DNA of 64,000 bases, filler included, from Chrysochromulina tobinii (taxonomy: Eukaryota), in the NCBI GenBank assembly GCA_001275005.1. It is 6 parts of 6 records of this genome, joined end to end, with 100 filler letters (N's around TTAATTAATTAA, not from the genome) between each part and the next. Parts side by side here need not be neighbours in the genome. Positions count along the whole stretch, not along the records: positions 26,423 to 45,804 come from JWZX01001299.1; 5 more parts are not named here. One strand, given 5' to 3'. Both the position numbers and the translations under genes were made by a program. Under the pieces are notes generated by a model, which was not told the DNA's origin, made no database searches, and saw nothing but the letters and a program-made list of their open reading frames with translations. Of the stretch, positions 6,005 to 57,845 are shown in pieces (the stretch's first letter is position 1; the number at the start of each line of letters is the position of its first letter).

Positions 6005-6319
6005 TCAGCCGAGCGGGGATTTCCATGGCATCGTCCTGAGCACAAATTAAGCACAAACCAGGTATTCACGAAACGGGGCATGGCCTCACACGTTTCACAT
6101 TGTCGGCGGTATGGGTTGAAACAGTCCCTTTCACAGCCACTTTGGTATATTCACAGTTGATTTTCTCGCTACCTCGAACAACATGCGGCGTCGCGAGGAG
6201 ACACGCATCGGTTATTCGGCGAGGTGAAGACAGCCCACGGAGCCCACGGACACCAATAGCGAGCAGCGCACCAGCTTTGAGTCCTTGGGGATCTCATATA
6301 CTCCCAGATTTCTGAGCAC

Positions 6320-7375: not shown

Positions 7376-7600
7376 CGTCTAGCCAAAGGTCCGACGGCGC
7401 AAAGCGGCGCGTCCCCGCGCATTCGACGTCGATATGACTTCACGGGTGTGGCTGGGGTTAAACATGGAAAATTAAGATTTGCACTTTACACAGCGCAGTC
7501 ACGAGTCATTACACACGAGGACCCGGCGGACGAATCGAGATGCCCTCGATGAGCGGGGCGGGCCACGGACACGGGACATCGTCCTAACTCCTAAGTATGT

Positions 7601-8476
7601 CTACAACTCGTCCCTTTCTCGGGTCGTATCCATTCCTCCTACCGCCTCACCGCCATCCGCATCCTCGTGCTCGGCTGGCGCCAGTGCGGCTGGGCTGCCG
7701 TCACTTTCGATCGAGCCGTCGTGCAGACCAGCCGCCTCTCCCTCTAGCCGCCCCGTGGGCCGCCTCGCAAGCATCTCATCGGCGAAGGCACGCAGCCGAC
7801 GGAAGGTGGGCGGCCCGTCGTGCCACACGGGCTCGCGCTCGTGCGCCGCGCTGTGCAGCCACAGGACAGCCGGCGTCGCATTCACGCCCAGGCGCTCCGC
7901 GATCGCCGCGGTCCGCGGCGTCGACGAGTGCACACGCACCTCGAGCACGAGGAGCTGACCTCGCAGCGTTGACGAAAGAGCCTTAAGAAGCGGCGGCGTC
8001 GTCGATGAAGCGCGCCGCCGCACGAAGCACAGCATGCGCGGCAACCGCCAGGCGGCCGCGCTGCTGCCTGCCCGATCCCACGCCTCCTGGTCCTCCACAA
8101 CGGTCACGAAGCTCGGCATGAGCGCAGCCGCAAAGCTGGCAAGGTCTGCCACCTGGCGGCTCCCGTCGTAGTCGACGAGACGAGCGCCGCCGGTGGCACT
8201 CGGGACCACGGCACGGATGGTGGGCGTCGCATTCGCCTCGCCGAGCAGCGGTGGTAGCGTCTGGTGGGCGTGCGCATCCCAGGAGCCGACGACGACCTCG
8301 TGGCGCAGCTGCTTAGCGAGCTGCTCCCAGCGCGGCGTGAGGGCCTGGCAGAAGCCGCACGACGGGCGACAGATATTGACGAGCCAGAGCAGCGACGATG
8401 GGCCGCCGCTCGCCGCAAGCATTTCCGGCGAGAGCGCCACGACCGAGCCAGCGGCCTGGAGCTGCGTCGCCATCAT
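7601..8476 (-). CDS. Thioredoxin-fold / protein disulfide isomerase-like protein
   Basis: PSCGFCQALTPRWEQLA (CxxC), TPTI cis-Pro motif, YDGSR, a second inactive Trx-like domain, C-terminal RDEL ER-retention signal. Confidence 0.85.
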   Translation of the reverse strand: MMATQLQAAGSVVALSPEMLAASGGPSSLLWLVNICRPSCGFCQALTPRWEQLAKQLRHEVVVGSWDAHAHQTLPPLLGEANATPTIRAVVPSATGGARLVDYDGSRQVADLASFAAALMPSFVTVVEDQEAWDRAGSSAAAWRLPRMLCFVRRRASSTTPPLLKALSSTLRGQLLVLEVRVHSSTPRTAAIAERLGVNATPAVLWLHSAAHEREPVWHDGPPTFRRLRAFADEMLARRPTGRLEGEAAGLHDGSIESDGSPAALAPAEHEDADGGEAVGGMDTTRERDEL

Positions 8477-8740
8477 TTTCTAGTGACTGTGAATGGATTG
8501 TGAATAGGTATGGAAATCGAAGGGGAGGGGGGGGAGGGGGGGGGGGAAGAATCCTTACAGGGAGTCCGGGGACCTGCGTTCACGGCGCGTGTTGTTTTTC
8601 ACATCGCCTTTTCGATTTTGGGATGAGTTTTCTCTTCCTCTCGCTCTAGTCTCCGCTTCTGGCTCCGTGCTCCAACTAGGCTCCGGCCCGTGCTGCATTC
8701 CCGCGTCCAGAATCCTCCGTATTTCTGCGGGCGTGGGAAG

Positions 8741-11700
8741 ATGAAAGTGGCCATGTGCATCCTTCTAGCTTGGGTGGTTGGGTCGAGCGAGGGCAATGAC
8801 GATTGGGATGAACCCGTCGCAGATCAAGAAGATCCGGGCAGAGGAGCGCGAGCGGAGTGTCGCTGTCAGGCGCGCCTGGACGTGCAACTCGTGGTACCTT
8901 TGCTTCTCGAGCGCGATCATCGCCATCGCCTTCATCCACCCGCTCCTTTCATCGACGGGCTGAGAAAGGGCATGCGCCAGGACTTTGAGATCGCGTTCGA
9001 GGAGCTCTTCATCGAGGGCAAGCTCTGGGACGCTGGCGTCAAGTCCTCGTTCCCGTACGGCCAGACGAATGCGAACGAGGACGCTGCGGGCGACGGGCCC
9101 GTCGAGGAAGCGGCGAAAAGGGACGGGATACCTTTGCGGTGGGTGGAGCGCTTCGACGGCGGCGCACTCGTGCTGCTCTGGCTCGGGTTGCTCGGGTTCA
9201 TCTTTGCAGTTTGCTCGGAGCAGGATCGGTCCAGCCGGAACAAGCGCTTCGCAATTCGGTCGAAAACCAATCGCTCCCACCGTAACAAGTGGTTCGAACT
9301 GGCCTTGCTCGCGCACATGGTCCCGCGCGTCGCCGACGCACAGAGCGCCTACTTTGCCGTCACCTCTGGCCGTTGCACCGTCGATCCGAGCGCGTGGAAC
9401 TGCATTCGCTCGCCCAACTTTCCGTATGATTACGTCAACAGTCAGACGTGCTCCATCACGCCGACTGCGCTCGCCATTGGAAGGCCTTTGACAGCGACCT
9501 CCTTCATTACGGAGTCTTGTTGCGACTACCTCCGCATACCTAGCCACCCGTCGGGGACGTTGACGGCGTTCTCAGGATGGACCGGACCTTCCAATTTCAT
9601 CTTGGGCCCGGGGACGATCCAATGGTCTTCAGACAGCAGAGTCACCCATACCGGCTGGCGAGTGTGCGCGGGCTCGGCGGGCTCGGCGGGCTCGGGCGGG
9701 ATCGCTCGACTTGTGGAGCTCACTCGCAGCGGCAGCGCGGTGGAAAAGGAGAACGCGGCGGCGGAGCTGTCGACCCTTGCCTACAACAACGCCGACAACC
9801 AAGTGGCGATCGCGCGCGCGGGCGGGATCGCTCCACTCGTCGAGCTCACTCGCAGCGGCAGCCTGGTAGCGAAGGAGAAGGCGGCGGGGGCGCTGTGGAC
9901 CCTTGCCTACAACGCCGACAATAGAGTGGCGATCGCGCGGACGGGCGGGATCGCTCCACTCGTCGAGCTCACTCGCAGCGGCAGCGCGGTGGCGAAGGAG
10001 AAGGCGGCGGGGGCGCTGTGGAACCTTGCCGTGAACGCCGACAACAAAGTGGCGATCGCGCGCGCGGGCGGGATCGCTCCACTCGTCGAGCTCACTCGCA
10101 GCGGCAGCGCAATGGCAAAGGAGCATGCGGCGGCGGCGCTGTGGAACCTTGCCGTGAACGCCGACAACAGCGTGGCGATCGGGCAGGCGGGCGGGATCGC
10201 TCCACTCGTCCAGCTCACTCTCAGCGGCAGCGCGGTGGCAAAGCAGAACGCGGCGGCGGCGCTGTGGACCCTTGCCTTGAACGACGACAACAAAGTGGCG
10301 ATCGCGCAGGCGGGCGGGAACGCCAACGACCAAGCAGCGATCGCGCAGGCGGGCGGGATCGTCACACTCGTCGAGCTCACTCGCAGCGGCGGCGCGGCGG
10401 CAAAGGAGCAGGCGGCGGGGGCGCTGTGGGTCCTTACACGGAACGCCACGAACAGCGTGGCGATCGCGCGCGCGGGCGGGATCGCTCCACTCGTCGAGCT
10501 CACTCACATCGGCAGCGCGGTGGCAAAGGAGAACGCGGCGGGGGCGCTGTGGAGCCTAGCCTTGATCGACGACAACAGCGTGGCGATCGCGCGCGCGGGT
10601 GGGATCGCTCCACTCGTCGAGCTCACTCACATCGGCAGCCCGAGGGCACAGGAGAACGCGGCGGGGGCGCTGTGGGTCCTTGCACGGAACGCCGACAATA
10701 GAGTGGCGATCGCACAGGCGGGCGGGATCGCTCCACTCGTCGAGCTCACTCGCAGCGGCAGCGCGGAGGCAAAGGAGAAGGCGGCGGCGGCGCTGCGGAA
10801 CCTTGCCGTGAACGACGACAACAAAGTGGCGATCGCGCGCGCGGGCGGGATCGCTCCACTCGTCGAGCTCACTCGCAGCGGCAGCGCGGTCGCAAAGGAG
10901 AAGGCGGCGGCGGCGCTGTGGAACCTTGCCGTGAACGACGACAACAGCGTGGCGATCGCGCAGGCGGGCGGGATCGCTCCACTCGTCGAGCTCACTCGCA
11001 GCGGCAGCGCGGTCGCAAAGGAGAAGGCGGCGGGGGCGCTGCGGACCCTTGCCGTGAACGCCGACAACCAAGTGGCGATCGCGCAGGCGGGCGGGATCGC
11101 TCCACTCGTCGAGCTCACTCGCAGCGGCAGCGCGGAGGCAAAGGAGAACGCGGCGGCGGCGCTGCGGAACCTTGCCGTGAACGCCGACAACAGAGTGGCG
11201 ATCGCGCAGGCTTGTGGGACACTCGTCGAGCTCACAGCGGCAGCGGGGGCACAGTTTTGGGGCTTGGTTCTGGTTTGCTTGCTTCTGGCTTGCTTCCCGC
11301 TGATGCATGCCTGTTGTTGCCTGCCAAAAAACCCGCCAGTGAAGATAGTCAAAGTTGCAGATGAGGAGGGGGAAAACACAGAATTGCTTCCAGTCGGGAC
11401 TGCCAGGAGCAACGCCGGGCATGCCATCGCGCCTCCACCGAGGTGGGACAAGGCGGCAGCAGAGAGGGCGCTGCCTCTGCCACTGATTGCCTTGCCCCCT
11501 GCCATCTTTCTCGACGTCCCTTTTCAAGTTGTGCGTGCCCTCGTGCTTCCTGATTGCTTGCGACGAAGCGCCGTGCTGGGCACCACGTGCTTTTCACTGA
11601 GTATCCTACTGCCCTGCCATTTCGAGGTCGACCGTTCTCAAGCGCCAAGTTGTGCGTGCTCTCGCGCTTCCACAGGGGCGAGGCAGAGCGGCGCGAGGCA

Positions 11701-21761: not shown

Positions 21762-21861
21762 NNNNNNNNNNNNNNNNNNNNNNNNNNNNNNNNNNNNNNN
21801 NNNNNTTAATTAATTAANNNNNNNNNNNNNNNNNNNNNNNNNNNNNNNNNNNNNNNNNNNN
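21762..21861. other. Artificial contig linker (44N-TTAATTAATTAA-44N)
   Basis: Identical 100-nt spacer with six-frame stops occurs five times. Confidence 0.98.
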
Positions 21862-26322: not shown

Positions 26323-26422
26323 NNNNNNNNNNNNNNNNNNNNNNNNNNNNNNNNNNNNNNNNNNNNTTAATTAATTAANNNNNNNNNNNNNNNNNNNNNN
26401 NNNNNNNNNNNNNNNNNNNNNN
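26323..26422. other. Artificial contig linker
   Basis: 44N-TTAATTAATTAA-44N. Confidence 0.98.
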
Positions 26423-28243: not shown

Positions 28244-31200
28244 ATGGTGAAGCCGGTGCAGAAGCAAGTACGTAACTCGTGGGGACCAGGCACCTCTGGC
28301 GGCTGCCCTCGCGTGCCCTCGTGGACGAAGAACCCGCAGTACCTCCTAACGCCGAGCGCGCCCGGCTCCTTCACGATCGTGCTCCGGTGCAATGCACAGC
28401 CGCTCCTGGACATTGGCTTCGTGGTGCTCAAGCAGCAGAGCGGCGACCGTGGCGGTCGCAAGACATCTCCAAAGGTGAGCAAGCGCGAGCTCGTGACTAA
28501 GACCACGTGGAAGCCCGTCGACGTGCAGACGGCCGAGGTGGACCTGCCGCCTCTGGCGAGCGGCGAAGCACTGGGCTACATCATCGTGCCGTGCACCTTC
28601 GACCCTGGCCACCAGGCGGCCTTTGAGCTGTCTGTCGCCTCCGTGGCCGGCGTCGCCTTCACGCTCACCGAGCTCCGCGACGACGCCGGCGCGCCGTCGC
28701 GTCCGGCGGTGCAGCCAGTGACTCTGACGGAGGCGAATGTCGCCGCCGCCAACGCGGCCAACGCCGCCTCGGGAGGGGTGCCGGCCAAGCTGCCCGCGGC
28801 CAAGGCGGCGGCCGCACCGGTCAGCGGTGGCGCGGCGGCAACGCCCTCCATCGCCAAGGCGGAGGTTCCGGTGGCCGAGAATGAGGTGCAGCCCATCTCG
28901 GAGGGCCAGGGCCTTTCTAAGAGGCAGCAGGCCGACGTGGCACGTCTCATCGCTGAGGCGGAGGCGGCGGCCGCGCAGAACGGTGGGCTGTTCGTGGACC
29001 CCAACTTTGTGGCGGGCCCGTCCTCACTCTGGGCGGACGGGCGCGCCCCGGGCGCCGAGCTGCGTGCGAGCGGGCTCCCGGCCGATCCCGTCATCGCGTG
29101 GCGCCGACCGTCCGAATTTGCGGCCGACCTGCCGTCAGGCTCGGGTGTGCCCCGGCTCTTCTCCGACGAGCGGAGCGGCGGCGTGAGCGGCGTGGTCGCC
29201 TCGGCGCTGCTCAACCACTGGCTCCTCGCCGCGTGCAACATCGTGGGCGGCGACCTGGGCGTGCTCGAGCGCGTCTTTGTCGACCGTTCACATGGCGCCC
29301 AGGGCTTCTATCTGGTACGCTATTGCGTGGACGACCCAAATTCGGACGAGCCGCCAGAGCTCTGCATGCATGTGCTCACCACGGCGCCTCGTCCCCCTCC
29401 CCACAGGTACGCTTCTACGTGGACGACCCAAAGTCGGACGACGACTGGCACGTGGTGATCGTGGACGACAGGCTGCCGTGCGGCAAGGACGGCCTTCCGT
29501 GCTTCGCGCGCACGCCCTCGCCCGCCGTGCTCTGGCTCCCGATCCTCGAGAAGGCCTTTGCCAAGTATAAGGGATGTTATGAGAAGACCGGCGGCGGCTC
29601 TGTCGAGGATGGACTTCTGTACCTGACTGGCGGCCTGTCCCGCGAAGTGGGCGTGTTGCCCTCGAATGACCCCGAGCTCGTGGACGCGCTCTGGGGCCAG
29701 ATGATGCAGTGGTGGCAGACTTCGCACGTCATCGGGTGCGAGCACCGCGTCGACGGCGAGCCGCCCGACGAGCTGACCCGAAAAGGGTTGCTCGCCAACC
29801 TGCCGTATTGCGTCATCGTGGGCGGCGAGTTCTACGGCCATCGGATGGTGAGGCTGCGCACCTTTTATGGCTATTCGGAGTGGCGCGGCAAGTGGGCCGA
29901 CGACGACCCGTCGTGGACCACGCAGATGCGCCAGCTGATGGCGTACCGTAACAATAGCGAGGACGGCACGTTCTGGATGGGCTTCGACGACTTCGTGCTC
30001 TGGTTCAACGTGCTCTTCACGTGCCGGATGGCCGACGACCGCTGGACGAAACTCACCATGCGCTCGCGCTGGCAGGGCGCGACCGCGGGGGGCTGCTGCC
30101 CCAACTTCGCCACGTGGCGCTGCAACCAGCAGTGGCTGCTCACCACCAAGCAGCCGCTCCGCCTCACCATCTCCCTGTCCGTGCCGGCTCCCTCGAGCGC
30201 GTCCACCACGGACCACGAGGCACTCTTCCCGCCCGAGGGTGCTCTAGGGATCACGATCCTCAAGGGCAACCCTGGCGCGGACGCCAAACGGCGCAAGCTG
30301 CTCCTCACCTCGGCCGACGAGCTCATTGTCCGAGCGGAGCCTCGACAGGTGCGCCGCCTCGTGCAGGACGTGACGCTCGAGCCGTCGGAGACGCCGTATG
30401 TGCTGCTGCCGCACACGTTCACACCAGGATGCGAGACTCCGTTCACGCTCGTGCTGCGCGCGGACGACGAGAACGACGACGGTCTTCCCGATTTCCATCT
30501 CGAGCCGGTGCGCCCCGAGACGGACTGGTACCAGAAGACGTTTGACGTAACCTGGGCGACAGCACTCGAGATTGTGTGCCAGCCCTCAGATCTTGCGAGC
30601 CCTCGAGACGATGGCAAGACCGCGGCGCTCAAGGCGGCACTCAGGCGTGATAAGCAGGCGGCGGGCGCGGACGACGACGACGACGACGACGATGGTAAGC
30701 CGGCCAAGCCCAATTTCGACTTCGGCGGCGCGCCGCCGGGCGGCCCGCCCAAATCGCGTGGCTTTGTGGCCAATCCTCAGATTGCCCTCAAGGCCGAGAA
30801 GGTGGGTCGCTTCTTCATAGTCGTCGATCAGCTTGGCGTCAACCTCGACGGCCGCATGAGCGAGGGCCCCTCGTCCGATATGTACCCCGAGGTGGGCGTC
30901 GCAGTCCTCGCCTCGGTCGCGGCGCTCGACGACGGCCGGCTGGACGACGGCGAGATCTTGCACGATGAGCGCGCTGCGGCTGACTCGGTCATGCTGGCGT
31001 GCGGTCTGGCCACCTCGGAGGTGGCGTACTGCGTGGTTCCCTACCTGGCCAGTCCGAAAAAGGCTCTCGCAGACCATCCCAACCTGCGCTGCCGCGTGTG
31101 CGTGTACGCTGACGTGCCCTTCACGCTCGACAGCGGCGCACCGAAGCTTGGCGCCGAGCACGCGATGAAAGAGGACGGCACGTGCACGTGCTGGAACCTG

Positions 31201-33331: not shown

Positions 33332-35227
33332 TCACTCCGCAGCAGGGTCGGGCTCATCGCCCTCTGGCTCTGCCTCTGTCGACAGCAGCAAGAAGCCATC
33401 CTCGAGCCGCCGCCTGAGCTCGCTCAGGTCCTCGTCTCCCAAGGCCTCCGCTCCGTCCTCGTCCTCGAGCTTCATCAAGTCTAGGCCCAGCTCGGCCGCC
33501 GCCATGGCTCTGAGCGACGCGAGCTCTCCCTCACCAGACATAATGGAGGAGACCACGCCCTGGCCCGCCTGGCCTACGCGACCCGTCCTGCCGGCCACGT
33601 GTACATACTCCGCGGCACTGAGCGGCGGGAGCCCAAGTGTGAACACGTGCGTCACGTTGGCGAAGTCCAGGCCACGCGCCGTCGCGAGCGGCGCCACGAG
33701 CACGGAGGCGCTCTGGCCCGCCGCCACCCCCGGCTTGAAGCCCTGCTGCGCGCCACCCGCCCGTCGAAAGCGATCGGCGAGAAGCATCGGCTCCATCCCG
33801 GTCTCGGGCAGCAGCACCGCGATCGCGTGGTCGCCCCACAGAGCGTCTCGGAGGGCCCTCGCCACCTCCTTAGCTGCGGGCTCGTCCGCCGCAAACACAA
33901 CGGCTCGGGGACGTGGGCCGAGCGCCTGCACAGCGCTCTCGGCGGCCTCCTCGGCGAACGCCTCGGCGGCGGCCGCCTTCACAGCCCGCTCGTTCACAGC
34001 CCGCTCGTACGCGCGAAGGTCCGATCGCATCATGCGCACGAGGAGCAGCAGGCGCTCACCTTCAGTAGGCGCGAACGTCGCCTGGTGAATGAGCGACGGG
34101 GGCAGCGCCGTGCGCCGCTTGGGCACAGCCTCCCCCACAAAGGCCTCCGTCAGAGTCCGACTGCTTCCATCGCCCTCAGCGAGGCACGCTGGTGCACGGA
34201 GCAGCCCTCGCTCCATGACGGCAGCGATCACGCCGTCTGTGAGTGTCGCGCCGGCCACAAAGCGTACGCACGAGGGCGGCGCGCTCCGAAGCAGCCATTG
34301 GCACCCCGGCGCATCCAGCAGTGCATCTGCCTCATCGAGAATGATGGCCGCGAGCGAGCCCAGCGGCAAGGCATCGGTGGTAGCGGCGGCGGCAGAGGCC
34401 AATCCGTCCGGGGTCGTGATCAGGAGGTCGCAGTCGGCCGCACGCAATCCCGAGGCTGAGTCACCCGTCGTCCCGGCCCATAGGACGATGCGAGAGCCCT
34501 TAGGCCCTTTGAACTTGAACAGGGAGTCGCGGGCTCCCGGCTCCCACGTGCGGCTCGCCCTCGCGTAACCACCGAGCAGCGAGTAGGCTATGCCGCCCAC
34601 CTGCTCGCACAGAGCCTCGTTCGGCACCACGATGATCGCGAGCGGAGCGCCGCGAAGCGTGAGCGACTCAGGGGTCGATTTGGCTCGCTCGGACCGCATG
34701 GTGATGAGAGCAGGCGCGAGGACGGCCATAGCGTCAGTGGGCGAGAGATTCGGTGCGGAGGCCACGGCCTCGCTCGTGCGCACGCCGCGGGCTTCGAGTG
34801 GCTGAGCGAGGACCACAGCGAGCAGCGGCATGAGATACGCGAGCGTTTTTCCCGCGCCGGTCGCCGCTCTCAGGACAACATCCTGAGCCGGTCGGGCGGA
34901 GAAGGCTGCCACCTGGACAGGCGTTGGATAGCGAAACCCGAGTTTCTCGCACCGATCGAAGAGCCACGCTGGGACGAGCTCTGTCGGCCAGCCGGACGGC
35001 TTGGCGCCCGCGTCGGCAATCAGCTTTTTCAGCCGAGCGGCCTCGGCGTAGTCCTCGGCCTCCACTGCGGCGTTCATAGCAGTGATGGCCGCGTTGACAT
35101 CGAATTCGTTGAACGATTGCATGACAGCCGTGCGCTGTAGGCAGAGCAAGCGTGGCCCACGCGCCGCAGCGGGCCCACGCGATACAGCGAAAGCCATGGC
35201 GATCGCCGGAACCAACGACGTGAACAT
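33332..35227 (-). CDS. DEAD-box RNA helicase with UVR motif, probably plastid-targeted
   Basis: Q motif GFRYPTPVQ, ATGAGKT, DEAD, GAT, ARGLD, HVAGRTGR; AVEAEDYAEAARLK; signal peptide ending AMA-F. Confidence 0.92.
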   Translation of the reverse strand: MFTSLVPAIAMAFAVSRGPAAARGPRLLCLQRTAVMQSFNEFDVNAAITAMNAAVEAEDYAEAARLKKLIADAGAKPSGWPTELVPAWLFDRCEKLGFRYPTPVQVAAFSARPAQDVVLRAATGAGKTLAYLMPLLAVVLAQPLEARGVRTSEAVASAPNLSPTDAMAVLAPALITMRSERAKSTPESLTLRGAPLAIIVVPNEALCEQVGGIAYSLLGGYARASRTWEPGARDSLFKFKGPKGSRIVLWAGTTGDSASGLRAADCDLLITTPDGLASAAAATTDALPLGSLAAIILDEADALLDAPGCQWLLRSAPPSCVRFVAGATLTDGVIAAVMERGLLRAPACLAEGDGSSRTLTEAFVGEAVPKRRTALPPSLIHQATFAPTEGERLLLLVRMMRSDLRAYERAVNERAVKAAAAEAFAEEAAESAVQALGPRPRAVVFAADEPAAKEVARALRDALWGDHAIAVLLPETGMEPMLLADRFRRAGGAQQGFKPGVAAGQSASVLVAPLATARGLDFANVTHVFTLGLPPLSAAEYVHVAGRTGRVGQAGQGVVSSIMSGEGELASLRAMAAAELGLDLMKLEDEDGAEALGDEDLSELRRRLEDGFLLLSTEAEPEGDEPDPAAE

Positions 35228-35395
35228 CGCGAGAGCACTCACTCGCTGAGTGCCACGCTCGCATTCTTCTGATTGACTTCCTCATCACAAACCTCTCCTC
35301 TCCCGCCTCCGTTCACACTACTGCAGTGTTCCCCCTTTCGTCAAAACCAGGATGGGTTCCAAGCCCCTCCCGAGCGCCCCGCTTCGTGGCGCCGC

Positions 35396-36994
35396 ATGAC
35401 CAAAATGAAGAAGAGCGGAGCCCCGGCCGACGGAGCACCGTCGGACGGAACGTCGACGAAGAAGACGGGCGCCAGCCAAAAGCCAAAGCGCTCGGACACG
35501 TCCAGGATGATGCTGTGGGCTGCGCCGGTTGTTGTCCTGCTGGCCGCTGGCATTGCATTTGTGTCCAAAACTAAGCTGTGGCACGATACTACTCCAACCC
35601 ATGCGCAATACGCGGCTCAAACCCGGCAAGGCACGGCTCCGGAGAAGGAGAATTCAACGCCATCCAAGACCGCTGCCAAAGGGCTGGGTGTGGACCCGAC
35701 AACGAGCGCCAAACTGCCAAAGGGCTGGAGCTCTGCGACGGACCCGACGACCGGCGCGCAGTACTATTTCAAGCAGGGATCGCGCGAGACGCAGTGGGAG
35801 TTTCCGACCGAGGCGGTCGCCGTTGAGGCGCCTGGAGGAGGAGCGAGCGTCGCGCCCGCGGCGGGTGAGCCCGGTGAGCCCGCGGACTGCGCCGCATGGG
35901 CGGCGGCTGGCGAGTGCACTGCCAACCCGGCCTTTATGCGTACGGAGTGCAAGGTGACGTGCGAGCGAGCGGATGAGGCCGCATCGGCCCATCTAGTGGA
36001 CCTGTACACGCCCAAGGCCGAGTGCGTCCAATGGGCGCAGATTGGCGAGTGCGAAAGCAACAAGGCCTTCATGCAGGCGCAGTGCGCGTTCTCATGCTCT
36101 CCCGCAGGCATCGGGGGCAAGGTCGATTCGCTGCGTGCCCAATACCGCGCTCGCTGCCCGCGCGCGCCCGACGTCAAGCCCGCCCTCGCTCCGGATGCGA
36201 TGAACGCGACGTTCGAGCGCGTGATGTCGGAGTTTGGCGATCTCGAGCCCGAGATGCTCTCCAGTGACCCCCCGGTTGTCCTCTTCCACAACTTCTTGAG
36301 CGAGGCTGAGGCGGAGGCGTTCATCAGGCATGGGAAAGGCAAGTACACGGAGTCGCGCGGCGTCGGCATCGACAAGAATGGCAAGACTATCGAGGTGTGA
36401 GGCCTGTGACTAGCCCTCTGATGGCCCATGATTGCCGCTCACGACGACTTATGATAGCCTCCCTCTCATCAGGTGAAGACCGAGATCCGCACTTCGCGCC
36501 ATGCCTGGTGCATGGAGAGCGCCTGCCTCGAGGACCCACTAGTGCAGGCCGTCCAGCAGCGTGTGAGCGACGTCACACAGGTACCCGTGCCCAACACTGA
36601 GTTCGCACAGCTCGTGCATTACAATGCGTGCCCGAAGCACGACGACCCCACATGCGCCTTCTACCGGCGTCACTCGGACTGGATCGACGGCGACATCCAC
36701 CTCGTGCAGGGCGTGCGCCTCTACACAATGTTCATGTACCTCAACGACGTTCCGGAGGACGGCGGCGGCGGCACGCGCTTCACCGACCTGCCGGGAGGGC
36801 CGCTCACCATCCAACCCAAAAGGGGGAGGGCCGTGCTATGGCCCTCGGTGCTCGCGAGCGACCCAGGCAAACAAGACCACCGCACGCACCACGAGGCGAT
36901 GACCGTGTTCAAGGGCGAGAAGTTTGGCGCCAACTTTTGGATCCACCAGTACGACTTCCGCACGCCGTACAAGATTGGGTGCACCCTAAATTAG
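35396..36994 (+). CDS. Prolyl 4-hydroxylase with TM anchor, WW domain and two ShKT domains; exons 35396-36394 and 36473-36994
   Basis: LPKGWSSATDPTTGAQYYF...TQWEFP (WW); C..WA..GEC..N..FM...C...C twice; FHNFLS..E, RTS, HSD, FMYLNDV..GGGT.F, HEA..V..GEK. Confidence 0.92.
36395..36472 (+). other. 78-nt phase-0 intron (family B tail)
   Basis: GAG|GTG...CTGATGGCCCATGATTGCC...GCCTCCCTCTCATCAG|GTG removes the in-frame stop. Confidence 0.9.
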
Positions 36995-37568
36995 CCACAC
37001 CACACGAGAGGGACGACGGGGCGGGCGCGATCAATTCCATCCGGCCGTCCTTGCGCGTTGCGGCCATAAAGCGGATCCGCGTTGATTGTGAGGCCCCGGC
37101 AGGGCCGCGCAGGGGCCGCGCGACAGGACACGGTCTCTACCGGGCTGTGCGGTCGTGGTGTAATCTATAACACGCCATCGCGCATCGGATATCTCTGACC
37201 GTCGCAGCGATAAGCAAACCTCCACGACCACGAGTGCATGTCTCCCCGGATCGGATCGGATGTATGGTGTTTCCCTCTATCGGTCCGATTTAGGTCCGGT
37301 CCGATTAATCGGTTCTCGGCCGGCTTTTTCCGGGCGAGGCAGCGCCGACAACGCGGTCGACCCGTCTGTCCCTCCCCATCGCCGAAACCCGAACCCTCGC
37401 CGGAAAACCGAACCTTACTTCGACCTTGCCAACTCTTTATGGCCCTCTTCACTTCCGTTGGAGCTCGTTGGCATCTCCCGAGGACCGCATCCAACCGCCA
37501 CGGCGCACCCGGCGCCATGCCGGTTGTTAAGCCGGTTGCCGCGCCCGCTCCCGCTTCCCATTCGAATG

Positions 37569-39317
37569 TCATACACTCACGCGCCTCGCAAGCCACGCCG
37601 AGGGTGGGAGCGCTTGCAGCGCAAAGAGGCGCGGCCGCACAAGAACGAACCACGCCACCCCGACGAGCAAGCTGAGCATGCATGTGGCTGTGTACCCGTC
37701 GATGAGCACCTCGGGCTTACACTTGCACGGGGCGGCCACCGCTACTCCAAATACCTTGCCAATCGACTTGCCAAGAGCTTGCCAAGGCATGGCAAGAGCT
37801 TGCAGTGCGCCCGCCGTGGCTGGCGGCTCGCAGGAGCACGGGCGAGTGTGGTGCATCGCATCAATTAGGAAGAGCGCCGCGGTGTTGGGCCACGCAGCGC
37901 CCAGGTTGGCAATGGTGTTGAGCATGGTCATGTACGTGCCACCGATGCTCGGGTCGGCCACACGGTTAAAGAAGGCCATGATGGCCACAAAGCCCGTCTC
38001 CTGCACCGCCACCTGCACGAGGATGGAGAGAGTGACCACCGCGTAGAGCCAATAAGGCAAGCCGCCCGAGCTGCCCCGGTGCGCGCCCACAACGGTCACG
38101 AGCGTGAGTGCAACCAGTCCCATGAGCAGCCGTGCCGGGTAGAGGCGCGCGAAGATGTGCAGCGGCTTGGCCTCCTCGCCGGCCGCGCCCGTCGTCAAGA
38201 AGCGGCCGGAGACGTAGAGCTGCACGCCCATCCCAAGAACCTGTGGGCAGAGGGGAGTGGGGAGGGCGAAGGGGTGAGCACTTGCATGCGCGCACTCCGA
38301 GGAGCGCTGCCCCCCAAGCACCTGTGCGACGGAGACCATGATCGCGAGGTGCTCCTTCGGCATGCCCGCCTGCGTGATGCGCAGCGAGGTGGCCGAGCCG
38401 AAGACACCGAGCGCCGCACGGCACGTGAGCAGCGCGAGCGCCATCGAGCGAACGGCGGGCAGTCGCAGCACGAGCCACATCTCCTCGTACGCGTCGCGCA
38501 GGAGGGTGCCGAGGGAGCCACGGAGTGGCATGTGCTCGTCGCCACGCGAGAGTAGCGCCACCCAAAGGGTCGAGGCGAGGAAGACCCATCCCCAGAAGAG
38601 CATGAACCCGCCCAGCGTGACGAGTCCATGGGTTTCGTCAAACGCAGCCGCCGGGCGCAAGTAGGCGTTACAAAACTCAGGCGAGTAGAGCGCGAGGAAG
38701 CCGGTGCTCGAGATCAGATATCCGAACGACTGGCCGATGGTGTTGCACGTCGCGCCGAGCTCCTTGTTGGCCGGCGATAGGATCGTGAGGGCGAGGCCAT
38801 CCACTGCGATGTCCTGTGTGGCCGCCAGGAAGAAGAAAGCGAAGAAGAGCATCGTGAGCGTGCCCACCTCCACGGGCACGTCGACGCCACCGCCCTCGCC
38901 AAGCCACACATCGATGTGCGGCGCCGCCCACAGCAGCAGCGCGCCGATCGCCAACTGTGCGGGCACGATCCACGTCTTACGTCGGCCGAAGCGACTGTGG
39001 TACAGCGAGTCGACAAGGGGCGCCCATAGCAGCTTGAGCGAGAACGGCCAACTCGCAAAGGAAAACTTGCCCTGGTCGGAGTCCCGCAAGTTCTTTTTTT
39101 GCATCAGAAAAGGCACGGCGCTCGCGATGCCCATGGGTACGCCCTGCAGCGTGTACAGCAGCAGCAGCAGGCTGATCGCGAAAATGTCCTGCCGCCAGCC
39201 GACGACGGGCACCGTGTCGGCCGCTGATGCTTGCTTGCGCAGCTCAATGTCAGCTTCTGACCGCGCTGAGGAGCCAGAGGGTTGACTGCTGCTGCTGCGA
39301 TTTCTGATCTCTGCCAT
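37569..39317 (-). CDS. SLC33A1: Acetyl-CoA transporter 1 (AT-1, MFS); intron 38241-38321
   Basis: LLLLYTLQGVPMG, WPFSLKLLWAPLVDS, GRRKTWIVP.Q, ATQDIAVDG, DPSIGGTYMTMLNTIANLG. Confidence 0.93.
   Translation of the reverse strand: MAEIRNRSSSSQPSGSSARSEADIELRKQASAADTVPVVGWRQDIFAISLLLLLYTLQGVPMGIASAVPFLMQKKNLRDSDQGKFSFASWPFSLKLLWAPLVDSLYHSRFGRRKTWIVPAQLAIGALLLWAAPHIDVWLGEGGGVDVPVEVGTLTMLFFAFFFLAATQDIAVDGLALTILSPANKELGATCNTIGQSFGYLISSTGFLALYSPEFCNAYLRPAAAFDETHGLVTLGGFMLFWGWVFLASTLWVALLSRGDEHMPLRGSLGTLLRDAYEEMWLVLRLPAVRSMALALLTCRAALGVFGSATSLRITQAGMPKEHLAIMVSVAQVLGGQRSSECAHASAHPFALPTPLCPQVLGMGVQLYVSGRFLTTGAAGEEAKPLHIFARLYPARLLMGLVALTLVTVVGAHRGSSGGLPYWLYAVVTLSILVQVAVQETGFVAIMAFFNRVADPSIGGTYMTMLNTIANLGAAWPNTAALFLIDAMHHTRPCSCEPPATAGALQALAMPWQALGKSIGKVFGVAVAAPCKCKPEVLIDGYTATCMLSLLVGVAWFVLVRPRLFALQALPPSAWLARRVSV
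38241..38321 (-). other. 81-nt in-frame intron (family A tail)
   Basis: CACAG|GTGCTTGGG...GCATGCAAGTGCTCACC...CCCACAG|GTTCTTGGG; if retained it interrupts a TM helix. Confidence 0.8.
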
Positions 39318-39732
39318 TGTCGCTTCAAAGTCCCAGCGAACTGTGGGCGGGCAAAACGCGTGTGGACGATCGCGAGAGACTTTTGTGTCTCCCCCTGCGA
39401 AGCGTCGTTCCAAGCGCGAATTTTGGAACACGACTCTTCATGTACCCACCGTTGGAACTGGGGGGCTTAACATCGAGTAGGCAGAAAAGTGTTTGGTTCC
39501 TATTCGCTATTGTGTGAATTGCCGCTTCAGGGGGCGGCGTGCAAATTTCTACTCGGCGCCGCCCCTTGACTACTAGCCCATTTGGGGGTTCACCGCCCAC
39601 GCCGCACTTTCTTTTTATGGCTGTTTCTCAGCACGCCGTATTGTTTTCACGGCTATTCTGTTCACGATTTGTGTGTGTTCATGTTGCCGCCACATACAAG
39701 TAAGGCGCTAACGCGCGCTGGTCGGCTCGCCG

Positions 39733-42700
39733 ATGGAGCTGAGCTCCCCGCAGCGCCGCATACTCGAGTCGACGCGCAACACCGTGTCGCTTGCCAAGTC
39801 AAAGCTCTCGGTGCTGCAGCAGGCGATCGACGAGCGCTTGTCCGCGGCGCTCGCCAAGAATGCTGAGCTGCACGCGGAGCTGATGGGCACGAAGGAGAGG
39901 CTGCGTGCCACTGAGGAGAGGCTGCACGCCACTGAGGAGCACACGAAGGCGGCCACACGCGCGAGCTCGAGCGAGATCGAGGCCATTCGACAGGAGGCAG
40001 CCATCTGCGCTCGCCGTGCGCATGCGGCAGAGGACAAGATGCAGCAGTTGGCGGCGCGGGAGCATCCTCTGCTTGAGAGGAGCATGGCTCTCGAGCGCCG
40101 TGCGACGCAGGCCGAGGAGGCGGTCAAGAACCTGGCGCACCAGGCCGAGATTCGCGCCGCGCTTTCGAATGCGGCGCTCGAGGCCGAGGTCGACAACCGG
40201 CGGGCGCTCGAGCGCTCGCTCGGCGCCGAGCTGGCCGCCGCGCAGAACGAGGCTTTACGTCAGCGGCAGCGCGCCGACGAGGCGTCAGGGGCGCTCTCGG
40301 CCGAGCGGCTTGGCGTCGTGACGAGCAGTGAGACGTTCGCGCGCGACGCCGAGCGCCAGGTCTCCGCTGCGGCCGAAGCGGTGAACGTGAATGAGAGAGA
40401 GGCTGCGATCGCGCGCTCGGCTGAGGCTGTGCGGCGTGCGGAGTCGGCAGAGCGTGAGGTGGGGCGTGCACGGAGTGCCGCGGCCAGCGCGGAGGCGCGC
40501 GCGCGGACGCTCGAGGCTGAGGCCGCGGAGGTGCGCGCGGCGGCGGCCGAGTGGCGAGCGCGCGCCGAGGCGGCTGAGGAGGCGATCGCGGCAGCAAGGG
40601 ACGCGGCGAGTGCGGAGGCGGCTCAGCGCGCGCGGCTCGCGTCGGAGCTGCCCTTGGCGCTCGAGGAGCGCGCGCATGCACGCCGGCGTGCCGAGGCCGC
40701 CGAGCGAGCCGCAGCGGAGGCGACTGGCGAGGCGGCAGCGGCCAAGGCGGCTGAAGGGCGTGCACGAAGTGCCGCGACCAGCGCGGAGGCGCGCGCGCGG
40801 ACGCTCGAGGCTGAGGCCGCGGAGGTGCGCGCGGCGGCGGCCGAGTGGCGCGCGCGCGCCGAGGCGGCCGAGGAGGCGATCGCGGCAGCGACGGATACCG
40901 CGAGTGCGGAGGCGGCGGAGGAACGCACCCGCGCGCGCCGGAGGATAGAGGTGGCAGAGCGAGTCGCGGCGGAGGCGGGCCGCAACGCCTCAGACAAGCT
41001 CGCGAACGCGTCGGCGACGGTGCGCAAGGCGCAGGAGGAGGCGGCGGTGGCGACGGCGCGCGCGAAGAGTGCGGTCGAGCGCCTGCAGCTGCTTGAAGCG
41101 GAGCTCGGGCGGGAGCGCTCGTACGTCAGCCAGGCGTCGCGGCGAATCGCTGAACAAGCGGCGGCTCTCGAGGCGACCAAGGCGGCCGTTGAGCAAGCGA
41201 GGCAGCAGGCGGCGAGCCACGCCCGATATCGGCAGACGATCGTGCAGCACCACCGGCTCACTGAGCAGCATCACAACGCGCTCGGTGCGCCCTTGGGGCC
41301 TATGATGGTCACTGATTGCCTCTGAGTGCCTCTGATGGGCCTATGATGGCGTCCCTCATCAGGTGCGCACGCGGCCGCCTTTGATTGCGTCCCTCATCAC
41401 CTCTGATTGCGTCCTTCATCAGGTGCGCACGCGGCCGCGCTCCATGGAGCTCTGATGACGTCTGATGATCACTGATGACCCATGATTGCCTCCTTCATCA
41501 GGTGCGCACGCGGCCGCGCTCCATGGAGCTCTCACACACGCCACCTCAGGCGCGCCCCTCGAGCCTCCCCAGGCCCATCTGCTTCTTGCCACGTCGCAGC
41601 TGCTCTCTCGCTCGATCGAGCAGCTGCGCCAGCGCCACGCCGCGCTCACGGCGGCGCTCGAGCCGGAGCCCAAGACAACGCCGGAGCCCAATCCTTGCGT
41701 AGGAGCCGGCTGCTGGGGAGCGCCCAAGACAACGCCCAGCGCGGAGGCGCCGCCGACAGCCGCGGCCCCGTCGTTGGCGGAGGTTCCGTCCTTGTCGGCG
41801 CTTCCGTCGTTGGCGGCGGCACAGGCAGCGAGCTCCGCGGAGCTCGAGCGCCAAGCTGAGCGCCAAGCTGAGCGCCAAGCTGAGCGCCAAGCTGAGCGCC
41901 TAGCCGTGACGGCGCGCGAAGCCATGGCGCCCGTGACGGCGCGCGAAGCCATGGCGCTCAGCATGGCGCTCGTCGCCGCGTCGGCCTCCGAGAGTGCATG
42001 CTGGCGGGGCGAAGCCGCCGCGGCTGTGCACGCACGCCGGGCCACCGAAGAGGTTGCGAACGAGAAGGCCCGGCGCGCGGCCGCCGAGGTGGCGCGGTGG
42101 AAGGCCGAGGCCGAGGCGGCGCAGCATGCAGTGGCGAGGGCGGAGGCGCAGGCGGGGATGACGCCGGGGGGGGGCGGCCAGGAGGCCTACCCCCGTCGCC
42201 TCTCTGACTACGCCGCCGGGCTTCCTAACCTCCCGCTGCTACCGTCACTCTGGCCAGAGACGCCCCAGTACAAGCCACGCACCGCCGGGCGCATGGCGCT
42301 CGACATGGCGCCGCCGGCCACCGCCACGGCGCTCGCGCTCGACTCGCTGCCACCATACCGGGAGCCGTCCTGGGCGCCTCGGCCACCCGCGGCCCCCTCC
42401 TCGAGCGCCGTCGTGGGCGCGTGCTCCGCCTACACAGGACTCGGTGCGCCGTACGGTGCGGACGTTCTGAGTGCGGAGGCGGTGGCTCGCGAGGTGATGC
42501 GTTCCATCGACCTCGCAGCGGAGCAGCTCAGCCAGGCCGAGATGCGCGCGAATGCATGCGTCGGGTTCGCGACTCCGACGCCACCATCGGCGGCGGCGCA
42601 ACTGCTACCGGTACGATCGGCCGCTGATTGAGGGGGCACTGATGGCGCCTGATTGCGTCTGATGACCTCTGATTGCCTCCCTAATCAGGTACCGGTACGA

Positions 42701-42973
42701 TCGGCCGGAGGAGGAGAAGCCGCAGGGCCAGTTGCATCGCGCGATGCACCCAGCTCGACCCCGTGTGTCTCGATGGCTCCGCCGAGCCCCGATCTCAACG
42801 GCTTCACACCCAATGCGACCGCCGGTGTGAATGCGAGGCCAGCGGCAGAGCGGCTCGACGACGAGCTCATGCGCATCGACAACGAGATTGCCAAGTTGCA
42901 GCAGGCGCTACAAACGGCGAGCACGACCGAGGGAGATCCAGGACGCATGGAGTGCCGGACTGCGAGTGCATAG
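39733..42973 (+). CDS. Long Ala/Glu/Arg-rich coiled-coil protein; exons 39733-41284, 41502-42610, 42689-42973
   Basis: Three consecutive ORFs joined in frame by GT-AG introns; internal ~54-aa duplication at 294-nt spacing. Confidence 0.75.
41285..41501 (+). other. Compound 217-nt intron of three stacked GT...CATCAG units (41285-41362, 41363-41422, 41423-41501)
   Basis: Phase-1 splicing joins ORF 39733 to ORF 41486; each unit starts with GTGCGC and ends in TCATCAG. Confidence 0.85.
42611..42688 (+). other. 78-nt phase-0 intron (family B tail) with an 18-nt host duplication
   Basis: TACCGGTACGATCGGCCG at 42606 and 42690; tail CTGATTGCCTCCCTAATCAG. Confidence 0.8.
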
Positions 42974-43335
42974 CGGAGTTTAATCAATATCAATGACATG
43001 CAATTATGTGGCCTGGTCGCATAGTTAAACGCCGTCGCGGGCCACACACGTAACACACACGCCGACCGATTGTGCGACGCGGGGTCTTTGTACAAGCTGC
43101 CACAAATATTCAAATTATTTATTAGGCAAGATTTGTAACCAGGTTGTCTGTTATTTAGTAACTTGAACTTGAACTTGTCAAGAACTACTTGTATGGGTGA
43201 AAACTACCCATGGGCGCCTTGAAGTTCTATTAGGAATTCAAACGAAAGTCCGACAAAAGTCTGCAAATAAGGAATTCCTACCCGCGGGTCTCGTTCCATA
43301 GACCTCTAACAAGCGACGGTTTTCTGGGTTCGGTC

Positions 43336-44853
43336 ATGGATGCGCCCCAATGCACCCCGACAAATCGTCTCGGTTTAGACAGCGGTGAATCCGAGGCGGC
43401 AAACGCCGAGCTCTCGCACGACAAGATCGAGCACCGAAATACAGTGAGCACAGAAAAAGTGCTCCTCGGCGCGACCGACATTGAGCGTGTGGAGCAGATG
43501 ATAAAACTGGCTCGTGAGCAGATCAAGCGGTTGGCTCTGGTAGATGAAAAGGACATAGCAATCATCAATCGCGAGGTGGCGCAGCTTGGTGGACAGGATA
43601 CCGCCGGCATGCTGTTGCGCCTTGCGCGCCTCGACTTGACGCACGTGGATGACGGTGAGGAGCACCTCACCCAAGAAGAGTTTTCGGACTTCATGAAAGA
43701 AACGAAGCAGCTTTTGGATGGCATGAAGTCATCCGTTCTCAATCAGTCGGTCGTGTCGGCGCTTCTGCTCACCGTAGCAGGACCCAGCTTGCTCGGCCCG
43801 TTCGACGTCTTGTTTCCGACCGCATGGCATGACGACCAAGCCACACCGAACGCGGCGCTCTTTCGTATCAACAGCGGCAGCATCGCGAGGACCGCGTGGG
43901 GCGACGCGGGCGCTTATTTCCGGCCCGACGACGAAGAAGCTGCCGCGCAAATCCGGCGCTCTTTCTTTGTGTGTGAGATGATCTCCGTTTCGCTGAGCTT
44001 CGCCTTCGCAGTGCTCGGACTTTTCGTTGGCAAGGGTGTGTACCAAGCATTGGTCGCGATGCCCGGAACGATTGCTTCGCTCTCCTTCGTGATCGACATG
44101 CGTGGCCGCGGGTTCGCCATCACGGCGTGGGCCAACGATCTCGCGATCATCTCACTTGTGACTGGCTACGTCTTTGCGGCTACGCGCATCAGCTTCGCCT
44201 CGTTCATCTGCCTGGCGAGCTCCTTGATGATGGTTGGGCTTTACCCGCTGTGTGGGCGCTTGATGGGCTTCAGTTCTACAGTGGCGGCGACCCGGGCCAT
44301 GCACAGCGAGGCGAAACGAGCGCTCTGCAAATTCGCTCGGTTCGAGGAGCATAGGAAGAATGCAAGAGCTGCCCAGATGGTGAAGTTCATCGGCACGGGC
44401 GCTGCGAACCTCGGCTCGGGTGCGCTCAACCTTGGCGCTAGCGCCCTCAGCTCAGGTGCGCTCAAGTTCGGCACAGGCGCTGTGAATCTCGGCGCAAGCG
44501 CCGTGGACATCGGCACGGGCGCTGCGAACCTCAGCTCGGGTGCGCTCAACCTTGGCGCAAGCGCCCTCAGCTCAGGTGCGCTCAAGTTCGGCACAGGCGC
44601 TGTGAATCTCGGCGCAAGCGCCGTGGACATCGGCACGGGCGCCATGAACCGCGTGACGCGGGGCATTTCAGAACGGGCAGCCAATCCTGGTCGGCCATCT
44701 GCATCACGTGTTGCGCCCGGGCTTGAAACAAACCACGACGCTTTTGCGGCCTCGGGGTCCCAGTCCGTCTCGCGTCGGGCATCGAGTGATTCATGGGTTT
44801 TGTCAGAGGACCAAAAGGGGGGGGAGGGAGCGACGGCGATTGAACAAAAGTAG
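43336..44853 (+). CDS. Hypothetical 4-TM membrane protein with Gly/Ala-rich amphipathic repeats
   Basis: Four hydrophobic segments; 120-nt tandem duplication (IGTGAANL.SGALNLGASALSSGALKFGTGAVNLGASAVD twice) at about 44389-44642. Confidence 0.65.
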   Translation: MDAPQCTPTNRLGLDSGESEAANAELSHDKIEHRNTVSTEKVLLGATDIERVEQMIKLAREQIKRLALVDEKDIAIINREVAQLGGQDTAGMLLRLARLDLTHVDDGEEHLTQEEFSDFMKETKQLLDGMKSSVLNQSVVSALLLTVAGPSLLGPFDVLFPTAWHDDQATPNAALFRINSGSIARTAWGDAGAYFRPDDEEAAAQIRRSFFVCEMISVSLSFAFAVLGLFVGKGVYQALVAMPGTIASLSFVIDMRGRGFAITAWANDLAIISLVTGYVFAATRISFASFICLASSLMMVGLYPLCGRLMGFSSTVAATRAMHSEAKRALCKFARFEEHRKNARAAQMVKFIGTGAANLGSGALNLGASALSSGALKFGTGAVNLGASAVDIGTGAANLSSGALNLGASALSSGALKFGTGAVNLGASAVDIGTGAMNRVTRGISERAANPGRPSASRVAPGLETNHDAFAASGSQSVSRRASSDSWVLSEDQKGGEGATAIEQK

Positions 44854-45804: not shown

Positions 45805-45904
45805 NNNNNNNNNNNNNNNNNNNNNNNNNNNNNNNNNNNNNNNNNNNNTTAATTAATTAANNNNNNNNNNNNNNNNNNNNNNNNNNNNNNNNNNNNNNNN
45901 NNNN
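45805..45904. other. Artificial contig linker
   Basis: 44N-TTAATTAATTAA-44N. Confidence 0.98.
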
Positions 45905-48926: not shown

Positions 48927-49026
48927 NNNNNNNNNNNNNNNNNNNNNNNNNNNNNNNNNNNNNNNNNNNNTTAATTAATTAANNNNNNNNNNNNNNNNNN
49001 NNNNNNNNNNNNNNNNNNNNNNNNNN
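48927..49026. other. Artificial contig linker
   Basis: 44N-TTAATTAATTAA-44N. Confidence 0.98.
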
Positions 49027-57745: not shown

Positions 57746-57845
57746 NNNNNNNNNNNNNNNNNNNNNNNNNNNNNNNNNNNNNNNNNNNNTTAATTAATTA
57801 ANNNNNNNNNNNNNNNNNNNNNNNNNNNNNNNNNNNNNNNNNNNN
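57746..57845. other. Artificial contig linker
   Basis: 44N-TTAATTAATTAA-44N. Confidence 0.98.

What the first reader, a model, noticed from the sequence alone, without database searches (positions are those of the whole stretch)
41285..41501. Three introns stacked with zero-length exons, each starting with a longer copy of the downstream exon
Seen: units of 78, 60 and 79 nt each run GT...TCATCAG and abut as AG|GT. Their 5' ends match the true next exon (41502 onward) for 6, 16 and 31 nt respectively, then switch into (C)TGAT-rich repeats ending GCCTCC/GCGTCC(C/T)TCATCAG. Removing all three restores the frame (ALG|AHAAALHG). Inference: repeated rounds of 'copy the exon start, append a 3' splice-site cassette, restart at the exon start' at one site. 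This implies a serial intron-building mechanism and predicts recursive (ratchet) splicing in a tiny intron. Fixed-TSD DNA-transposon introners do not explain the variable-length duplications.
Basis: partly seen in the sequence, partly recalled or inferred. Interest (0 to 1): 0.88.

Follow-up and report, generated by a model that had tools for sequence, protein, structure and literature searches.

The report
Stacked, self-built introns in haptophyte alga
In a freshwater alga, many introns, including these three stacked ones, consist of a variable-length copy of the next exon's start joined to a shared repeat cassette ending at the splice acceptor, a likely footprint of an undescribed, probably RNA-templated way of making new introns that can strike the same spot repeatedly.

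Summary
The host is Chrysochromulina tobinii/parva-type. The triple is one case of a genome-wide pattern: 101 of 233 cassette ends carry a 13-60 nt copy of the exon start upstream (5.8 expected); joins show microhomology; cassettes are mosaics of 10-12-nt units without terminal inverted repeats; they sit in the sense of coding DNA, and removal restores frame in 17 of 18. A second, unrelated cassette is built the same way, once stacked on the first. A sister intron in this gene is spliced in one RNA set and apparently absent in lake strains. About half of stacked pairs are plain tandem copies, but this triple's cassettes are no more alike than random ones, so serial insertion is supported. The copying enzyme and template (RNA likely, DNA repair possible) are inferred. 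Recursive splicing is untested; only the whole 217-nt block was seen removed. A published introner survey lists 0 families for C. tobinii.

The parts
39733..41284 (+). exon 1 of host gene (long Ala/Glu/Arg-rich protein, no Pfam family, no homologue found)
   Evidence: open frame from ATG; Pfam none; searches empty; RNA contigs cover parts
41285..41362 (+). unit 1: GT, 6-nt exon match, family-A repeat array with an internal 13-nt repeat, terminal ...GCGTCCCTCATCAG; in-frame stop at 41323-41325
41363..41422 (+). unit 2: 16-nt copy of exon start (41363-41378) plus two near-copies of the terminal segment
   Evidence: unitigs
41423..41501 (+). unit 3: 31-nt perfect copy of exon start (41423-41453), join by CTCT microhomology, three 10-nt units, terminal ...GCCTCCTTCATCAG
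41502..42610 (+). exon 2; its first 31 nt are the duplicated target
   Evidence: RNA joint 41283->41501 in X14 and X16
42606..42707 (+). fourth family-A insertion: 18-nt duplication (42606-42623 = 42690-42707) around cassette 42624-42689 ending CAG+G; spliced as GT 42611..AG 42688, leaving two extra codons
   Evidence: 78-nt GT..AG skip in X15; 84-nt skip in X14, X16 with 0 of 19 GY..AG registers
42689..42973 (+). exon 3 to stop codon
   Evidence: sequence; RNA contigs
36395..36472 (+). older family-A intron in the neighbouring WW/ShK/prolyl-hydroxylase-like gene; no long duplication left
   Evidence: 78-nt GT..AG skip in 3 of 4 RNA runs; paralogues called on DNA contigs run through this point
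29315..29406 (+). family-B intron (core GTGCTCACCACGGCGC, end CCCCACAG) with a decayed 35-nt copy of the exon start, in a calpain-like gene
38241..38321 (-). family-B intron in the acetyl-CoA transporter gene
   Evidence: 81-nt skip in X15

Best explanation
The three units are abutting intron-shaped inserts, each built from a copy of the next exon's start plus a shared branch-point/acceptor cassette, and they were likely laid down in three separate rounds by a genome-wide, probably RNA-templated copying process. Shown: architecture, variable 13-60 nt duplication, microhomology at the duplication/cassette join, precise end at AG (sometimes AG+G), sense and coding bias, splicing of single units, two unrelated cassette families with the same build. 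Inferred: a reverse transcriptase working on or at a transcribed gene (primed at a staggered nick, or switching template from the gene's own RNA) copies the 3' end of an existing intron RNA from its AG back through the branch-point region, slips or hops between 10-12-nt units, then rejoins the target 13-60 nt downstream of where it left; the re-copied exon start supplies the 5' splice site and the cassette the branch point and acceptor. Each round regenerates G|GT on both sides, so the site can be hit again without changing the mRNA; simple tandem duplication also stacks units at other loci. Unit-by-unit (recursive) removal is predicted but untested; one-step removal gives the same mRNA.
For: Duplication excess 101/233 vs 5.8; same-locus control 96 vs 11, inverted 6, of 223, with matches peaking at the AG and decaying by about +30. 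Microhomology >=3 nt in 17 of 46 scorable joins vs 1.8. 31 young cassettes are not nested ends of one master (longest suffix shared with another locus 10-43 nt) and neighbouring units are identical in 80 of 207 vs 3.3%. Frame restored in 17 of 18 GY-starting units. Coding-sense 65, antisense 2, weak 25 of 92 ends vs 23/23/55% of random positions in the same loci, more than selection alone would give. Exact duplication reaches the AG in 24 of 45, starts one base after it in 4, and long foreign 3' carry-over is rare. Family B: 26 of 62 vs 2.9; B unit stacked on an A unit at L054. Triple's cassettes no more alike than random. Probable empty allele at 42.6 kb.
Against: No enzyme or donor was found: no genome was held and a crude RT-motif scan of the fetched loci found nothing. 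The extra G after AG (4 of 45; one backed by the empty allele) fits a DNA or pre-mRNA donor better than a spliced-out intron. 3 of 10 longer fillers match local sequence (0.4 expected), a mark of DNA end-joining. Arrays change length between strains after insertion (80 nt, L009 vs L011), which could blur a master sequence. 57% of ends show no detectable duplication (age or short duplications). 33 of 79 joins could not be scored for microhomology. The 84-nt skip could be an RT artefact between 18-nt repeats. The review passages read (PMC3443670) argue RT-based intron gain is rare.
Confidence: 0.45

Rival explanations
1. DNA-templated repair: a staggered, transcription-linked double-strand break with 3' overhangs is patched by polymerase-theta-like or synthesis-dependent annealing that copies the 3' end of another genomic intron, using GT.. 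homology on one side and microhomology on the other; overhang fill-in makes the duplication.
For: Microhomology, locally templated fillers 3 of 10 vs 0.4, extra G after AG, reiterated units; Daphnia new introns carry 4-12-nt repeats ascribed to staggered breaks (PMC4202315 passages).
Against: Needs an extra reason for the strong sense/coding bias and for near-precise ending at AG with little donor-exon carry-over; duplications here are longer (median 23) and the insert is a shared cassette.
Confidence: 0.3
2. Non-autonomous element moved by a transposon enzyme with imprecise ends (Replitron/HUH-type or a non-LTR or Penelope-type partner), with a defined right end at CAG(G) and 10-11-nt repeats as binding sites.
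For: Chlamydomonas Replitron-1 inserts with fixed orientation, variable duplications and donor-derived fuzzy ends, and one Replitron protein locus is reported in C. tobinii (PMC10288648, section 9 part 1 and passages).
Against: No fixed left end, no master copy, no stable hairpin (z -1.25 to +0.91), two unrelated cassettes behave alike, no long insert between distant duplications.
Confidence: 0.12
3. One original intron whose 3' end plus exon start was tandemly duplicated twice in cis (slippage), after which the arrays diverged; no new insertion at this site.
For: 19 of 35 stacked pairs elsewhere are such copies; units 1/2 share GCGTCC and units 2/3 share CCTTCATCAG variants; arrays are unstable.
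Against: The exon copies are perfect (16 and 31 nt) while the cassettes are at random-pair similarity (p 0.48, 0.35, 0.73); A+B stack at L054 cannot arise this way; does not explain single units with duplications.
Confidence: 0.1
4. Assembly or read artefact.
For: No single piece spans the block.
Against: Units differ; single-copy unitigs cross two unit borders; same pattern in loci from many independent assemblies.
Confidence: 0.02

Closest known systems
Introners with a co-opted 5' splice site (Symbiodinium microadriaticum type; Gozashti et al. 2022, PMC9860276, passages and supplement rows read)
   Same: Element carries the 3' splice site, target duplication supplies the 5' site; occasional added codons; strong bias to genes.
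   Different: Those have fixed 3-9-nt duplications, often TIRs, and end-to-end similarity. The Chrysochromulina example in that paper (marine MAG) has a 4-nt duplication and carries the 5' site, the reverse of this. The 2025 survey lists 0 families for C. tobinii (PMC12130899 supplement file 7).
Target-primed reverse transcription products of non-LTR retroelements (recalled, no paper read)
   Same: Fixed 3' end, ragged 5' end, variable duplication, microhomology at the 5' join.
   Different: No poly(A) or master element; end is a splice acceptor; inserts are unit mosaics; no RT partner identified.
Intron gain by staggered double-strand-break repair in Daphnia pulex (PMC4202315, passages)
   Same: Direct repeat of exon ends, internal repeats, repeated gains at one site, strain polymorphism.
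   Different: Repeats 4-12 nt and inserts unrelated to each other there; here 13-60 nt and two shared cassettes.
Tandem genomic duplication and RT template-switch/retrohoming models of intron gain (PMC3443670, passages)
   Same: Duplicated exon sequence gives the donor; template switching to intron RNA is a named, unproven model that could give this build.
   Different: Pure duplication needs no foreign cassette; the switching model was not described there with a long exon duplication.
Replitron-1 of Chlamydomonas (PMC10288648, section 9 part 1 and passages)
   Same: Oriented insertion, variable duplication, donor-derived extra bases at one end.
   Different: Replitrons have fixed ends with direct terminal repeats, are 0.9-3.6 kb and are not reported as introns.
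Fungal stwintrons/complex introns (PMC7138796, passages) and recursive splicing at zero-nucleotide exons (search listing; otherwise recalled)
   Same: Consecutive splicing reactions at one intron position; AG|GT points.
   Different: Stwintrons are nested inside a splice element; metazoan ratchet points are in very long introns; here 60-79-nt complete units abut, and stepwise removal is untested.

Membership tests
Introner (general) | Many introns share sequence across unlinked loci | tested here: met
   356 unique family-A ends in 130 loci plus window; 70 family-B ends; sharing limited to the 3' part
Introner (general) | End-to-end similarity matching both splice boundaries | tested here: not met
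   5' halves are locus-specific exon copies; longest shared suffix 10-43 nt for 31 young cassettes
Introner (general) | Spliced out of mRNA | tested here: met
   GY..AG skips at 36395, 42611 and 38241-38321 in RNA contigs; frame 17 of 18
Introner (general) | Recent insertion, empty sites | tested here: inconclusive
   84-nt non-spliceable skip in 2 libraries of one study, from RNA contigs only; paralogues lack the 36.4-kb intron
MITE/DNA-transposon introner | Fixed short target duplication | tested here: not met
   13-60 nt, quartiles 19/23/31
MITE/DNA-transposon introner | Terminal inverted repeats | tested here: not met
   inverted 14-nt terminus within 3 mismatches in 3 of 321 upstream regions; the 42.6-kb copy has a loose one
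Non-LTR (TPRT) insert | Variable duplication with 5'-join microhomology | tested here: met
Non-LTR (TPRT) insert | Copies are 5'-truncated pieces of a master element | tested here: not met
   only a small part of the genome sampled, so many-donor models are not excluded
Non-LTR (TPRT) insert | Autonomous RT/endonuclease partner | not testable with these tools
   no genome held; motif scan of fetched loci empty
Replitron-1 type | Donor-derived fuzzy end | tested here: inconclusive
   extra G in 4 of 45; longer foreign ends rare
Replitron-1 type | Fixed left end with direct terminal repeats and Rep partner | tested here: not met
   ragged 5' ends; partner not testable
Recursive splicing at zero-nt exons | Abutting AG|GT points with own branch sites | tested here: met
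   (sequence only)
Recursive splicing at zero-nt exons | Splicing intermediates or lariats at internal points | tested here: inconclusive
   no partial joint in 6 RNA runs, but only contigs, 2 covering the site
Tandem-genomic-duplication intron | Intron made only of duplicated exon sequence | tested here: not met
   acceptor half is a shared foreign cassette
Known structured RNA (ribozyme, snoRNA) | Rfam match above gathering score | tested here: not met
   best hit over the units 18.7 bits vs 36, E 1.9

The most novel reading that the evidence does not exclude
A transposon-free intron factory: in this alga reverse transcription copies the 3' half of any existing intron into transcribed genes, rebuilding the 5' half from the target itself, so introns beget introns without a master element, escape introner screens, make up a large share of the genome's introns, and pile up as recursively spliced stacks.
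Probability: 0.3. Interest if true: 0.93.

Novelty: new variant of a known kind. Interest (0 to 1): 0.8.

Why it matters
How new spliceosomal introns arise is a long-standing open question, and the only genome-scale mechanism on record is transposon-type introners. This is a thousands-of-sites pattern (rough estimate 2,800-9,600 sites per 59 Mb, from 3 sites in this window and 39 sites in 239.5 kb) with a different footprint, in a cultured alga with strain polymorphism, and it was scored as introner-free by a similarity-based survey. It gives direct tests of break-repair versus reverse-transcription models, suggests similarity screens undercount intron gain, and offers natural 60-80-nt back-to-back introns for testing recursive splicing in a unicellular eukaryote.

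Tried and rejected
Host-protein homologue searches found nothing, weak evidence for a low-complexity protein. Hammerhead or C/D-box reading of the CTGATGA motif: no Rfam support; hairpin reading: no folding excess. TIR reading: rejected. Long autonomous copy between distant duplications: none (its two printed hits are index artefacts). Partial splice joints: none in 6 RNA runs; X17 and X18 barely cover the site, X15 and X19 showed no joint there, so this is no evidence against recursion. Polarity of stacking: 12 of 13 last units match the exon longer than first units, but pairs were chosen on the last unit's match, so not counted. Strain-pair alignments among fetched loci gave no further presence/absence case. 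Viral contigs: 6 hits for family A, 5 chance and 1 likely chimeric; 0 for family B. Literature searches found no description of these cassettes; subscription papers are not covered, and supplement files 13-14 of PMC12130899 were not searched.

Full report
Observation. The three units, their lengths, ends and 6/16/31-nt matches to the exon start are exactly as described. The flanking exons join into one open frame only when all three are removed. Unitigs from 2 of 2 DNA runs cover the block without mismatch at single-copy depth and show no joint that drops a unit, though none spans it and the runs may share the window's source. The 6-nt match is the commonest donor-like hexamer here (40 of 321 ends) and proves little; the 16- and 31-nt matches are real.

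Host. The window is eukaryotic, about 63% GC, with few introns. The neighbouring gene's spliced 80-residue junction peptide is 100% identical to annotated proteins of Chrysochromulina tobinii and C. parva. The host gene itself has no Pfam family or homologue.

RNA. Contigs of four RNA runs were laid on 35200-43200 and two more on 40950-42900. Two lake libraries of one study (X14, X16; other strains, with substitutions) join 41283 to 41501, a 217-nt GT..AG skip; this may be splicing or an empty allele. No partial joint appeared. Single cassette introns at 36395 (3 of 4 runs), 42611 (X15) and 38241-38321 minus (X15) are skipped at GY..AG. At 42.6 kb X15, whose pieces match the window without change, skips 78 nt and keeps two extra codons, whereas X14 and X16 skip 84 nt, for which 0 of 19 registers give GY..AG. 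The simplest reading is an empty allele: an insert of 66 nt ending CAG+G with an 18-nt target duplication. An RT slip between the repeats is not excluded.

Genome-wide pattern. I dropped 14 loci as chance prokaryote or phage matches (L001, L003-6, L014, L015, L025, L066, L087, L088, L105, L118, L129); L002, a likely chimeric viral contig, stayed in the family-A counts (2 ends); ends were de-duplicated by exact flanks, so a few strain orthologues may count twice. Before dropping, 292 ends were followed by G in 246 and T in 209. After dropping, 356 ends remained, 321 with full flanks. Of 233 ends followed by non-cassette sequence, 101 have an upstream copy of that sequence, scored blind to the first five bases, against 5.8 in shuffled pairs; a same-locus control gave 96 vs 11 (60 nt further on) and 6 (inverted) of 223. 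Detected copies are 13-60 nt; in 79 clean cases the quartiles are 19/23/31, unit length 70/79/90, and copy length and cassette length are anticorrelated (rho -0.39, n 73), as if total intron size is constrained. Removing GT/GC..AG at the copy start keeps the coding frame in 17 of 18 testable cases (21 tested, 30 set aside for nearby cassettes). Cassettes lie in coding sense in 65, antisense in 2 and weak/non-coding sequence in 25 of 92 cases, against 23, 23 and 55% of random positions.

Cassette anatomy. The end is a near-fixed 19-mer, TGATTGCCTCCCTCATCAG and variants, whose CTGAT fits a branch-point consensus (recalled). Upstream are 10-12-nt units from a small vocabulary; neighbours are identical in 80 of 207 cases vs 3.3%. 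Thirty-one young cassettes are not nested ends of one master. At 46 of 79 scorable joins, 17 show 3 or more bases of microhomology vs 1.8 expected; 3 of 10 longer fillers match local sequence vs 0.4. The exact copy reaches the AG in 24 of 45, starts one base later with a G in 4. No TIR, Rfam family or stable fold.

A second family. A control on other acceptors turned up an unrelated cassette (core GTGCTCACCACGGCGC, pyrimidines, CCCCACAG) with the same build: 19 of 52 vs 1.3, then 26 of 62 vs 2.9. Two copies lie in this window. At L054 a family-B unit with a 37-nt exon copy sits directly on a family-A end, which cis duplication cannot make.

Stacks. Of 222 family-A clusters, 38 have a further GT/GC-starting unit within 140 nt; in 23 of these (hand count) the last unit copies 11 or more bases of the exon. 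Of 35 stacked pairs, 19 have a second cassette clearly copied from the first (p<=0.02) and 11 are like random pairs (p>0.2), including both pairs of this triple. So stacks arise both by tandem duplication and by fresh insertion; this one looks like the latter. The order of events cannot be read from the sequence.

Mechanism. Shown: copy of exon start + cassette + AG, ragged 5' join with microhomology, reiterated units, gene and sense bias. Inferred: a polymerase leaves the target at a G|GT-like point, copies an intron 3' end backwards from its AG, hops among units and rejoins 13-60 nt downstream, so the target's own sequence becomes the donor site. The gene/sense bias and the precise AG end favour an RNA template (0.45); the extra G and local fillers keep DNA break repair alive (0.3); a transposase-driven element (0.12) and cis slippage alone (0.1) fit less well. 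Because each round restores AG|GT, any order of splicing, or one-step removal, yields the same mRNA, which explains why stacks are tolerated. Each unit has the size and 3' signals of the single introns shown to be spliced, so unit-by-unit removal is plausible (about even odds) but unshown.

Known systems. It works like an introner that borrows its donor from the duplication (PMC9860276, passages, supplement rows) but fails the fixed-duplication, TIR and end-to-end tests. The 2025 survey lists 0 introner families for C. tobinii (PMC12130899: passages, section 6, supplement search, files 13-14 unsearched). Daphnia break-repair introns have 4-12-nt repeats (PMC4202315 passages). Replitron-1 shares variable duplications and fuzzy ends (PMC10288648). 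Template-switch and duplication models are named in PMC3443670 (passages); stwintrons in PMC7138796 (passages); PMC11282704 (passages) and 10.1101/051292 (first part) describe nothing like it; the C. tobinii genome paper gives 59 Mb and about one intron per gene (PMC4580454 passages). Ten searches found no account of these cassettes.

Verdict. Real, not a local oddity: the clearest example in the window of a genome-scale intron-gain footprint that I could not find in print. New variant of a known kind, with a fair chance of a distinct mechanism. Interest 0.8.

Noticed in passing
window 29315-29406 (+), 38241-38321 (-); L008, L020, L054, L058, L060 and others: Second intron cassette family (B) with the same variable exon-start duplication; its start shares GCATGC with one family-A unit type.
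   Followed up: partly
window 42606-42707: Insertion adds two codons after splicing and appears absent in lake strains; its 5' end loosely mirrors its 3' end.
   Followed up: yes
L002 (IMG/VR contig), minus-strand positions about 2940-3278: AT-rich phage-like sequence switches to a stacked algal cassette intron at a GCCTCTGATGG match: likely a chimeric assembly in the viral collection.
   Followed up: partly
L028, L083, L057, L020: The whole 21-23-nt terminal segment including its AG is repeated head to tail up to three times, giving several tandem acceptors.
   Followed up: no
L120, L027, L044, L013: Some stacked units are only 38-44 nt, below the usual size, so such stacks may be spliced as one intron.
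   Followed up: no
L009 vs L011: Array length differs by 80 nt between strains at the same intron.
   Followed up: partly
window 21762-21861, 26323-26422, 45805-45904, 48927-49026, 57746-57845: Five scaffold gaps, each two runs of 44 N around 12 bases.
   Followed up: no
window 40460-40900, 41845-41955, 44420-44600, 9860-11090: Coding tandem repeats: a 150-nt duplication and short repeats in the host gene (length variants in X16), a 120-nt repeat in the next gene, armadillo repeats.
   Followed up: no
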